Source of the DNA: Saccostrea echinata
Lineage: Eukaryota
Reading direction: 5' to 3'
NCBI RefSeq assembly: GCF_033153115.1
Contig: NW_026889757.1
Coordinates: 5,394,001 to 5,458,000, forward strand
DNA length: 64,000 bases
This document shows, one piece after another, positions 26,642-31,675 of this stretch. Each line of letters opens with the position of its first letter. The stretch's first letter is position 1. A program made the translations under genes and the position numbers. Below the pieces are notes generated by a model. It was not told the DNA's origin, did no database searches, and saw nothing but the letters and a program-made list of their open reading frames with translations.

Positions 26642-29600
26642 ATGATTCTAAGTAGTGTAAACTTCGTTAAAACCAGCAGCCGACAACAAAAATCTCATTT
26701 TGACTTCAGTGATTTTATTATTGGAAAAATTAAAGAGGAACAGGAGAGACAAGAAGGATGCAATAAGTGTGGATCGCCGGCGCAAAATGTAAGTAATTTT
26801 TATCTCATGTTCAAATTCAAATTACCCTGGTGCGTGTTTTCTATGTGGTTAAAACACACCAGGCTCCGGGGCCATAAAACTGAGACGAGCTCACTTTTGA
26901 TCTTAGTCTCACTTTTCCACTATATATTCCTTTTGTTAAGTGAGACTAAGATCAAAAGTTAGCTCGTCTCAGTTTTATGGCTCCGGAGCCAGAGTTGAAT
27001 ATACATATCTTACAGCATTATATTGTCAGTATTTTTCATTTTGCTTGTCTTTTGCTGTATGAAACATGTCATAATTGATCCATTTATTGTTTGGGCATAC
27101 CACTTTTAATATGTTTAAGGTCACAGATCTACATATTGTATCAGTAGGGCTCCTTTTTTCTCTTGAAATATTTACGAAATTAGGAAATTCCTTGTATTAT
27201 CCTCTATCAATTGAAGCATAAGAATCCGGGAGAGTTCCGTTATCTTGATGAAGAAAAAGAGCTAAATGTGCACGGAATTTTGTCGGCGCTGCATCCTTTA
27301 GTGCGATTACATCACTGAAATTCCTGTGTTGTGACGACGGGAGTTATGTTTGCTATATACATCGATTACTGGAAATATTGTATAATTGAATCTGATTGGT
27401 TTCCCTAACGTCTTGTATGTTGTCAATTTGTTGCATGATATTTTATAATGATGTTTTCGTCAGAAATCGACTCCAGGACATACGTGTCAACTTAAATGTA
27501 TAATTTCATCCTCCCCATCAATAATACGGTGTGAAGGACAGGAAAATGGGGAGGATGCGTGCTGAACTTTTCTTCCTCTAATTCTTGGTTGTAGAACTGG
27601 GTCAGTATGCATAGGGAGGGGTGTAGTGGGAGGGTAAATGGTGCTATTTAGGTCACTTGACAACAGGTGAAGGAAAGGGTTAATAAAACACCTGTCTGTA
27701 CAACAGGCGGTACGTGCTCGGGGTACCCTATGACTCAGTTTTAATCCTAATCTGAGAATAATCCTAATATTACATACAGACACTCTATTTAGTTAAATAC
27801 AGAAATTCCGGTGCCGACCACAATTACGAAGAAGGAATGTAAAAATTTCTCATCTCCATGAAAACTGTCCAAATGTAGGGGACTGATATTTACTTTGGCG
27901 GGCGGGGGCTATTTAAGATCTTCAATCTCTGAACAATAGGCCTTTTTAAATGCTTTGCATTCTTAACAAATTATATAAATGTTTATTCATCATACTATAT
28001 TAGCCTGTCGAATACTTGATTTAAAGGGTGTTGAGTTGGTATATAGGTGTTATCAGTGTGTTGAATAGATGGTCGTTCTAAGGTTGTATTTTTAAGAGCC
28101 TTTATCGCTTGATTTTTGTTTAGATTGCCAATAGGCGATTTTAAGATTGATTAGATGGTATATGGATGGATACATCAATATTGAAACCTATTAGCCGTTT
28201 AATGAAAAGAATTTATTTAACACTAATCCGCTACATCCATTTTTAGAACAAAATTAAGTGATCCTAAATCCGGGCCAGACAAACATGATTTCCTTATTTT
28301 TAACTAAATATACTGAAAAATATAGGTACTTGGTTTAATTTACTGAAGAAATAATGAAAAGGTAATCGGCTGATGAAAAAACATGATGTAAAGTAAATAT
28401 TGTGTTGTCGTTATGCAATCGGCCTAAATACATTTACCTTTGATATCATCACTCTTATTTTTAGATCAAAAAGCCCGAGAATATTTGTATGTTATCTTTA
28501 TTTAGAAACTTACCTGTAGAAAGATTTTCAAAGTATATAGTCAGCGGGTCTATAAATGAAATAAAAGATTCCATTTAATATCGTTTACAAGTAATAATGG
28601 GGGTAGACCTGAGGTATTTTGTTGTGACATTTAACACTTTCTGCCTGTATCTCCAAAACAAAACGCTGCCATATTCTGTTTATAGGATGACCCCTGGAGG
28701 GTATAATATTTCACCCCCAACCGGTGCGATCCCCCTGGGTCCATAGACAGTACATGCATTGTTCAGGAATAGGCTTTGTCAATTAATTACACGTCTGCTG
28801 ATTTCATTGTGTTGAGTGCATTACCTTTCGCTGACATTTTTCAAAAATTTAAAATTTTTATGCTGTCAATTTGCGTAATGTCCCGTGTCACTTTCTGTAG
28901 GGGGTTACAATGTTACATCAACAGTTTACCATGTTTAGTGCAATTGACCAAGCAATTTCAATAGATTTTTAATTATTAAATTTTTTTGGGTCAATTTTAG
29001 GCGAAGAAAAGTGAAGTAAACAACCCATCCTCGGCAAGAACAAGCTACACAGGTAATTATTACTAGTATATTATTTATATACCGATATAGACAGGTCGCA
29101 ATTTATAATAATTAAAGAAATAGTAGGGACAAAATAAAAAAAAAATGATTTTGTTTATATATAGAAAGCATCAAGAGAAGACACTCAGCCCAGAAAGAGA
29201 ACAGTTCCAATGTTACAGTAGAAACCAAAGACGGTTACGTGGTCAGCTTATGTGAGGAACTTAACCGCATATACCTCGGAGATGTAGAGGACCCTAACAA
29301 TTCAAGTAAGTCACTTGCCTTGTTCAGTAATAACAATGTTAAAGATCTTTTGAAAATCTTTGGGTAAATTTTTAAAAGCTGCCACTCTGTTAAGAAAAAA
29401 AATGCCATTGGTGTTTAACACTACATGTATTTTCATTTATGTATTCATGTCTCCCCTTCTCTATTTTCCTTAATTATTCTATTACATGTACACACGTAAG
29501 TGTCATTCTGATAAGCCAGTTGACTTAAGGAAATAAAGAAACTTGTTACAAATTCAGAATCACCTTATCATCAGATATTTAATAGTTTCCTGAAAAAACC

Positions 29601-31675
29601 CACAATACCTTCAACTACAACAGAGAACATTGCGATAAGTTTTAGAAGTTGTGTGCTATTTTTAATTTTTATAATTATTGATTTATTTATTGTTTATTTT
29701 TGTGTAGAACAAATACTTCATATGCTTAATAATATAGCCTTCTTTGGTTAAAAAAATATTACAGTGTACAACGTGTACAAATTCAAGGAAGTTAATCTAA
29801 AAATATCACAAAATCCAGATGTTTCGATGGCCTAATTACTTTTACATCAAGGAAGGGACATTTGATAAACAGTTCTCTGTATTTCGAGTAAATTTTAAGG
29901 ACATGAAAAAATATAAATCACATACTAGTGTGTGTACGTCTGAATTTTTACATTTTACGCATTGTTTTAAGACAACCCGCTCAGTTTCTTTAAAAAAAAA
30001 AGACCGAAGGATGTTGTCTAATGAGTTGCTAAGTATTTTATTAGAATAATATATATATTCGCTAATAATGACACTGGTGAAAATGGAAAACAAATTACGA
30101 ATTGTTTCCTCATTATACACAGTGGGATGCAAATAGGTGATGATTTGGCCAATCCTGATGATTTCCGGTTCTATATTGATAAATCGCATAATTTAACCAA
30201 TTAGTGCTTCAAATGTTTGGTGAGGTGTATAGAGCGGGTTCGTGGAGAAGATGAAGACCAAAAAAAAATTATTTTAATTCAGATTCATATATCTGTTTGT
30301 TTGTGTTATAAATACGTATTAATTATGTCTGAACTAATTAATGCCATATAAACTATCCCAGTACAAGGACACTTCATAAATCGTACGATAAATTCCACCT
30401 GTGGCTTCGACATAAAAAATGTACCAAAAAAACCGCAGTCTGCCAGGCATTGGTTATATTGTATTTTTACTGTTTACTGGTCAGCGAAGTAGACAAGGAA
30501 CTTTCTCACACGTTTTTCGTTGACCATTCTTCGATTTTCACGGCAGTATGGCGCGGTTTATCCTTGTTTATGGTACTATCTGTTGACATTACTATGGATT
30601 TCACGACCACAACACATTATCCATACTAAGCATGTCAACCGTCATCGCACAGTATTATACAATGCGAATGACGTGTATAGCTATATGTTTCTGAAGACGG
30701 TCCTATGAGAATTTTTCTCCGCTGCTCATTACCGATTAGTTATATAAATCTATAATTACGAAAGTAATTGCATAAAATGTCTCGATATATCTGGATTTTC
30801 CAGGTATTGGATAGAATTCCAAGGAATCGTAAACAAATTTGAATAACAACTATTTTTTTCTTCACAAACTAGTTGAAACAAGTCTTGAAATTCACCTTCC
30901 CGGTCTTTTATCACATCGTTCTTGTTAACCTAGATTTTTCAAATGTTTTGCATAAACTGTCATCATTAACTTATTTTTTTCTTTTCCTTTTAGACATATT
31001 TCGTCAGACAAAACATGCACTTCAGGACGGAGAAAACTCCACCGAATTCTGCACATTCCGACTCCACAGTCGGGGGGACCTGTACCTGTCCGTGACCCCT
31101 GACCGGGGGTTAGCGGTACACCAGTCAGAAACCCCCGTGGATCCCCAGTCTCCAGATGACAGATGCTTCATAATGCATCCAGTATCAAACGGTAGTGTCT
31201 TCATCCAGCCGTACCATCATAAAGGTATGTACATTTTACATCCATATCAACAACCTGTTGACAAAAAAATGGAGCTCTCGTTCACAATCAGTCATGAAAT
31301 CTATCGATTTTCAATATATATATCGGCTATGAGTTTTATTTCTTTTTACCATAACTTTACTCAGTTTTTATTTACCGGTTTCTTTTAGGTTATTATCTAC
31401 ATCATCTTGACAGAGCTTTGTCAGTCACGAAATTGGAAATCAACTGGAGGCCCCCTGAGGAATATTTCTTCAGTATCGGTGTAGTCGATGTCCCCGATCC
31501 CGAGGTGTTTGTGACCCTAGAGGACCTTGAAGATGTTCCCGTCCAGAAATCAAACCCCATCATAGAAGAATCCTCCCCCATCAAACCCAGTCTTTTCTGG
31601 GGATGTTTTGGCGGAAAATCCAAGAAGTTATCATCCAAAATTAAGAAAACAATCAAACAAACGTCTCGTGTCTAA
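26642..31675 (+). CDS. Candidate IL-1-family (beta-trefoil) cytokine-like protein, 285 aa. Exons 26642-26788, 29001-29052, 29165-29305, 30994-31224, 31389-31675
   Basis: Four GT-AG introns join in frame (858 nt), with no signal peptide. The core VTVETKDGYVVSL..IYLG..NIFRQ..CTFRLHSRGDLYLSV..LAVH..DRCFIMH..VFIQPYHHKGYYLH..LSV..EYFFSI parallels the IL-1beta strands. The gene model is solid; the family call is by eye. Confidence 0.75.
26863..26989. mobile_element. Palindromic MITE (PIF/Harbinger-like) in intron 1
   Basis: ~52-bp near-perfect TIRs GCTCCGGGGCCATAAAACTGAGACGAGCT..; CAG target-site duplication. Confidence 0.85.

What the first reader, a model, noticed from the sequence alone, without database searches (positions are those of the whole stretch)
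29290..31010. Intron position and phase apparently shared with vertebrate IL1B
Seen: intron 3 (29306-30993) is phase 1 and splits the Asn of N-I-F, two residues before the strand-4 Phe. From memory, human IL1B intron 5 is phase 1 and splits Val40 of V-V-F42, the equivalent spot. A phase-1 intron also precedes the trefoil in both genes. The last intron differs (HHK|GYYL, phase 1, versus phase 0 after LQLE). A shared intron would support homology independently of protein similarity.
Basis: partly seen in the sequence, partly recalled or inferred. Interest (0 to 1): 0.72.

Follow-up and report, generated by a model that had tools for sequence, protein, structure and literature searches.

The report
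Oyster IL-1-like gene's ancient introns
This oyster gene has an intron at the spot where vertebrate interleukin-1-beta is recalled to have one, but an oyster FGF growth-factor gene has it too, so it is a different intron, shared with four nearby oyster IL-1-type genes, that marks it as a likely overlooked offshoot of the ancient IL-1 family.

Summary
Intron 29306-30993 is GT..AG, phase 1, splits Asn114 two residues before the invariant strand-4 Phe of a 12-strand beta-trefoil, and is spliced in 4 of 4 runs laid. The IL1B phase is published; its residue (Val40) is recalled only. The intron does not single out IL-1: the oyster's own FGF gene has it at the equivalent place, and conserved IL-1 intron phasing in invertebrates is already in print (IL-1anc, Nat Ecol Evol 2026). 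The IL1B/FGF phase-0 intron after strand 7 was lost in oysters but is seen in relatives' exon fragments. The HHK|G intron is a third site, present in 4 of 4 IL-1anc-type genes found 0.52-0.59 Mb away on the same contig and absent from oyster FGF, fascin and FRG1. So the gene most likely heads a slow-evolving, bivalve-wide, PDZ-less and FES-less offshoot of IL-1anc that the published catalogue does not list. Its function (leaderless, probably membrane-tethered, possibly an alarmin) is inferred only.

The parts
26642..26788 (+). Coding exon 1 (residues 1-49; conserved M-I-L-S-S-x-N-F start, no hydrophobic signal peptide); phase-0 intron follows
29001..29052 (+). Exon 2 (52 nt), low-complexity linker; phase-1 intron follows
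29053..29164 (+). Intron 2, phase 1, splits E67, upstream of the trefoil; not positionally comparable with IL1B intron 4
   Evidence: IL1B position recalled
29165..29305 (+). Exon 3 (141 nt): trefoil strands 1-3
29306..30993 (+). Intron 3, phase 1, splits N114, two residues before strand-4 F116: site i, shared with 4 of 4 oyster IL-1anc genes, oyster FGF and (recalled) IL1B
30994..31224 (+). Exon 4 (231 nt): strands 4-9; F116 codon at 30999-31001; IQP in place of the FES motif at 31203-31211
31121..31122 (+). Site ii (H156|Q157, after strand 7): no intron here in oysters; phase-0 intron in other bivalve members, oyster IL-1anc, oyster FGF and (recalled) IL1B
31225..31388 (+). Intron 4, phase 1, splits G191 between strands 9 and 10: site iii, shared with 4 of 4 oyster IL-1anc genes, absent from oyster FGF, fascin and FRG1
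31389..31675 (+). Exon 5 coding part: strands 10-12, disordered tail with conserved G-C-F motif (Cys codon 31604-31606) followed by a basic stretch; stop TAA 31673-31675
31676..32588 (+). 3' UTR; AATAAA at 32569-32574, poly(A) loose end at 32588 in one contig

Best explanation
The gene encodes a predicted beta-trefoil protein that is likely a PDZ-less offshoot of the ancient IL-1 (IL-1anc) family, and the flagged intron is likely one of two introns inherited from a common ancestor of IL-1 and FGF genes. An ancestral bivalve IL-1anc gene with three trefoil introns (phase 1 before strand 4, phase 0 after strand 7, phase 1 after strand 9) likely duplicated; this copy lost the PDZ domain, changed FES to IQP, and in oysters also lost the middle intron, while staying on the same chromosome arm as the IL-1anc cluster. 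The protein has no signal peptide and would be held on the cytoplasmic face of a membrane by an acylated Cys plus basic tail, with the trefoil released by cleavage or cell damage to act as an IL-33/IL-1alpha-like alarm signal on an Ig-TIR receptor. Shown: gene structure, intron sharing inside this genome, linkage. Predicted: fold. Inferred: descent (about 0.8), membrane tether (about 0.5), cytokine action (about 0.4).
Confidence: 0.75

Rival explanations
1. Same descent from IL-1anc, but the protein is no longer a cytokine: it works inside the cell as a membrane-anchored adaptor, as FGF11-14 do among FGFs.
For: Loss of FES; no signal peptide and conserved Cys-plus-basic tail; slow evolution of strands 8-12 across bivalve orders; single copy found in this genome. 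The FGF11-14 parallel is from established knowledge.
Against: IL-1alpha, IL-33 and most IL-1anc are also leaderless and intracellular before release (PMC13736523 discussion); Foldseek prefers IL-33/IL-18; tandem expansion in Potamilus (3 genes on one record) is typical of immune genes.
Confidence: 0.35
2. An independent, mollusc-specific branch of the wider FGF/IL-1 clan: sites i and ii are clan-wide, and site iii and the linkage are coincidence.
For: Sites i and ii are in oyster FGF; sequence signal to three of four IL-1anc genes is at noise level; site iii missing in some paralogues; PDZ and FES absent.
Against: Exact phase-1 match at site iii (about 1 in 143 by chance) plus location 0.5 Mb from the only IL-1anc cluster found in a 923-Mb assembly, plus profile scores that favour IL-1anc over FGF; in six-frame scans of the two neighbourhoods each HMM's best hit in the other region is the other family's exon, though weak (E 0.021 and 0.16).
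Confidence: 0.15
3. A fascin- or lectin-type trefoil whose intron matches IL1B by chance or by parallel insertion at a favoured site.
Against: 0 of 3 sites in the four trefoil domains of the oyster fascin on C22 and in FRG1; three-site match to IL-1anc.
Confidence: 0.05

Closest known systems
IL-1anc family (Fontenla-Iglesias et al., PMC13736523), incl. bivalve CvirIL-1.1/1.2, PmaxIL-1.1-3, MtroIL-1.1/1.2
   Same: 12-strand trefoil; D-x-R-x-F motif at strand 8; phase-1 intron before strand 4; in this genome also the phase-1 intron after strand 9; linkage to the IL-1anc-type cluster; no signal peptide
   Different: No PDZ; IQP instead of (F/L)ES; conserved N-terminal peptide and C-terminal Cys-basic tail; slower evolution; middle intron lost in oysters; orthologues in two surveyed species (LOC111100805, LOC134712265) are not in the paper's Table S2
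Vertebrate IL-1beta / IL-18 / IL-33
   Same: Fold, with IL-33 and IL-18 ranked first by Foldseek; phase-1 intron before strand 4 (phase published, residue recalled); leaderless
   Different: No Pfam IL1 match; 13-17% structural identity; IL1B has no intron between strands 9 and 10 (its last three phases are 1,1,0); C-terminal tail of about 60 residues after the trefoil
FGF family (oyster FGF at G000:C47 16.138-16.142 Mb)
   Same: Fold; phase-1 intron two residues before the strand-4 core residue; phase-0 intron after strand 7 (104-nt middle exon)
   Different: No site iii intron; no sequence-profile similarity (0 bits, hhalign E 0.05); shorter strand 4-5 loop

Membership tests
IL-1anc | 12-strand beta-trefoil in IL-1 strand order | tested here: met
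IL-1anc | N-terminal PDZ domain (typical; the paper also lists PDZ-less members) | tested here: not met
   No PDZ hit in Pfam; N-terminal 78 residues are disordered plus one helix
IL-1anc | (F/L)ES motif in strand 9 | tested here: not met
   Aligned position reads IQP
IL-1anc | First central trefoil intron, phase 1 | tested here: met
   but also met by oyster FGF
IL-1anc | Second central trefoil intron, phase 0 | tested here: inconclusive
   Absent in this gene; 9 of 13 fragments of relatives that reach the site break there with the letters expected of a phase-0 intron (read from protein, DNA not seen)
IL-1anc | Linkage to ESD, GCC2 or an IL-1 receptor gene | tested here: inconclusive
   ESD on C1, GRIP-domain hits not on C8; assembly has 425 contigs; receptor not searched; the paper reports this microsynteny for cnidarians and ambulacrarians, not bivalves
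IL-1anc | Immune induction, caspase processing, receptor activation | not testable with these tools
   Only presence of spliced contigs was seen
Vertebrate IL-1 family (PF00340) | Pfam IL1 match / family signature | tested here: not met
   0 of 26 members match PF00340 at E<=10; IL33_bt 2 of 26, best E 0.004
Vertebrate IL-1 family (PF00340) | Intron splitting the Val40-equivalent codon | tested here: inconclusive
   Phase from PMC4880838; residue recalled; no vertebrate gene could be read and fold tools give ranges only
FGF | Pfam FGF match | tested here: not met
   0 of 26 members; the window locus is not among PF00167 hits in G000
Fascin / FRG1 | Pfam fascin match, tandem trefoil domains | tested here: not met
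   Single trefoil; no Pfam hit; intron sites differ

The most novel reading that the evidence does not exclude
Bivalves carry an unrecognised, slow-evolving branch of the IL-1 superfamily that swapped the PDZ domain for a lipid-anchored tail, giving a membrane-tethered alarmin; and the two 'IL-1' introns are older than IL-1 itself, fixing a single origin for IL-1 and FGF genes and removing intron phasing as an IL-1-specific argument.
Probability: 0.35. Interest if true: 0.72.

Novelty: new variant of a known kind. Interest (0 to 1): 0.5.

Why it matters
It adds a candidate ligand branch that a PDZ- and FES-anchored search could not find, in farmed shellfish where IL-1 ligands were only just recognised. 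It also sharpens an open argument: Rivers-Auty et al. (PMC5861070, passages) argue that trefoil cytokines may be convergent, and the IL-1anc paper uses two conserved introns as evidence of IL-1 ancestry. An FGF gene in the same genome has both introns, which favours one origin for FGF and IL-1 and means those two introns cannot by themselves assign a gene to IL-1; a third intron can.

Tried and rejected
Pfam, PDB-sequence and ESM Atlas searches gave no family. PF00340 found nothing in G000 and nothing in controls. A first motif pattern for IL-1anc had 0 matches; the second had 78 matches, fewer than its reversed control (136); only the 30 that came with loci were read and 1 was a gene, so further IL-1anc genes elsewhere are not excluded. 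A second PF00167 hit (L003) was noise, so the FGF comparison rests on one oyster gene. The by-eye likeness of IL-1anc A's C-terminal L-F-L-C-F-G to the family's tail motif was not supported: the tail PSSM chose another stretch. The automatic boundary sorting ran into introns, so fragment counts were made by hand (38 fragments; those not reaching a site were not counted for it). No further paralogue within C8:5.294-5.558 Mb; C8:4.965-5.294 Mb was not fetched. No paper in the library names six orthologue LOC ids; searches found no paper stating that FGF and IL-1 share these introns, but two 1991 structure papers that might were not held and subscription literature is not searched. Extended Data Fig. 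7 of PMC13736523 (intron map) is a figure and could not be seen; it may already show site iii in IL-1anc genes. The preprint's supplement was unreadable. No run was on record as RNA. The search of earlier findings returned nothing. No complex prediction was run, as no receptor was in hand.

Full report
Observation. The window holds a five-exon gene on the + strand (26642-26788, 29001-29052, 29165-29305, 30994-31224, 31389-31675) with intron phases 0,1,1,1. Intron 3 (29306-30993) splits N114 of N-I-F, intron 4 (31225-31388) splits G191 of HHK-G-YYL. All four joints are in contigs of 4 of 4 runs laid (2 studies; RNA status guessed by the tool), and the 285-aa product is identical to the RefSeq protein P0125, an uncharacterised Saccostrea protein.

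The IL1B comparison. PMC4880838 (passages) gives IL-1beta phases II,0,I,I,0 with the trefoil in the last three exons. A single match has a chance of 1.4-4%.

The decisive control. The oyster's own FGF gene (PF00167 hit) has a 104-nt middle exon: a phase-1 intron splits the Thr of F-[T]-L-L-K, two residues before the strand-4 core Leu, and a phase-0 intron follows strand 7; its last exon is unbroken through strands 8-12. So both central IL1B introns have counterparts in FGF. In contrast, the four trefoil domains of oyster fascin on C22 and FRG1 have introns elsewhere, 0 of 3 sites each; a fascin-like gene on C28 has a near miss, a boundary just after the strand-4 Phe of its third domain. The flagged intron therefore supports descent within an FGF/IL-1 clan but not IL-1 membership. 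This rests on one FGF gene read here plus recall of vertebrate FGF structure.

The family. HMMER over 1.84 billion representatives returned 58 proteins, all of this family; named members are from oysters, Pinctada, Tegillarca, Mytilus, Mizuhopecten, Potamilus (three genes on one record) and Mya. Among the hits are 38 fragments, many of them exon pieces called on genomic DNA (read by hand; phases inferred from boundary letters, DNA not seen). Site i (before strand 4): 9 of 9 fragments that reach it break there, 4 of them non-oyster. Site ii (after strand 7): 9 of 13 break there in phase 0; the 4 that run through are three oyster pieces and P0052. Site iii (HHK|G): 18 of 24 break, 6 run through, 4 of these being clearly genomic. 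So the family ancestrally had three trefoil introns (inference); oysters lost site ii, some paralogues lack site iii.

IL-1anc next door. PMC13736523 (abstract, sections 7, 12 part 1, 20, 63 part 1, passages, supplementary Table S2 part 2 and term searches) describes PDZ-trefoil IL-1anc genes in bivalves and reports two conserved central introns; its intron figure could not be seen. A 7-residue FES pattern gave 78 matches in G000; of the 30 read, one was an exon on the window's own contig. Around it lie four tandem genes, A-D, at C8:4.833-4.902 Mb, 0.52-0.59 Mb from the window gene (C8:5.421-5.426 Mb). I call them IL-1anc-type by eye from their likeness to CvirIL-1.1/1.2 in Table S2 (FES motif, upstream W-R-W segment) and from weak PDZ hits for gene A (E 0.008) and its Ostrea orthologue P0142 (E 0.011); PDZ exons of B-D were not modelled. 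All 4 of 4 have a phase-1 intron at [F]-x-F, a phase-0 intron after strand 7 and a phase-1 intron at FES-L-x-Y-x-[N]. hmmsearch and hhalign align these columns with N114, H156|Q157 and G191. Chance of 3 of 3 is about 7e-7 to 2e-5. Profile evidence is real but thin: gene A 22.8 bits against a shuffle maximum of 9.0, B-D only 3-8 bits, FGF 0; hhalign E 5e-6, E 9e-5 for P0142. Ostrea orthologues of both sit on records of identical length.

Membership. PDZ and FES, the hallmarks of IL-1anc, were tested and not met, so I do not file the gene as an IL-1anc; I read it as a derived sister branch (0.75-0.8). Its orthologues in two species that the paper surveyed are absent from Table S2 (0 hits for two LOC ids and two motifs), and six orthologue ids occur in no paper of the library.

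How it may work. No signal peptide. A G/S-C-F/V motif, mostly followed by basic residues, closes 25 of 26 members at very variable distance from the trefoil; by general knowledge such Cys-plus-basic motifs are acylation and membrane anchors. The trefoil is 87% identical to Ostrea and 46% to a mussel-cluster protein, against 70% for IL-1anc A to Ostrea. I commit to a membrane-tethered, leaderless alarmin released by cleavage or cell damage (about 0.4), with an intracellular adaptor role close behind (0.35). None of this was tested.

Verdict. The flagged idea is true but partly published and not specific. What is new here, as far as searches reach, is the unlisted PDZ-less branch, the third intron that ties it to IL-1anc, and the FGF control. 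New variant of a known kind; interest 0.5.

Noticed in passing
G000:C8:4833579-4902600 (L017, L039-L046): Cluster of four tandem IL-1anc-type genes; the paper lists only two for Crassostrea virginica. Gene A and its Ostrea orthologue have an extra C-terminal tail with L-F-L-C-F-G; likeness to the window family's tail was not supported by a PSSM.
   Followed up: partly
window 54245-55926 (+): C2H2 zinc-finger gene (six or so fingers by Pfam), by recall Gfi1/senseless-like, about 23 kb downstream.
   Followed up: partly
G000:C8:4820476-4824400 (L038): Selenium-binding-protein-like gene (recognised by recall) just upstream of IL-1anc gene A.
   Followed up: no
G000:C8:5341113 (L083): Exon resembling USP9X/fat facets (recall), about 80 kb upstream of the gene.
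   Followed up: no
window 62150-63244 (+); 5236-6636 (-); 1109-4070 (+): Intact-looking Tc1-type transposase frame; an integrase-core frame; and a SAM/HECT-like multi-exon frame flanked by 21-nt tandem repeats at 3-398 and 6645-7207, probably one mobile element (labels recalled).
   Followed up: no
window 26856-26990: Short inverted-repeat element in intron 1 that many unrelated transcript contigs also carry: a MITE-like repeat.
   Followed up: no
P0058, P0060: Database fragments of this family with systematic H>Y, P>L, S>L changes, as expected of C-to-T converted (bisulfite-type) reads rather than real proteins.
   Followed up: no
PMC13736523 Table S2: Three sea-anemone IL-1anc proteins carry W-x-C-(F/L)-G near the N-terminus, like the window family's C-terminal G-C-F-G; possibly a parallel membrane anchor.
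   Followed up: no
Mytilus LOC134712265 and relatives: X1 (about 312 aa) and X2 (about 253 aa) isoforms are annotated in several mussels; which exon differs was not examined.
   Followed up: no
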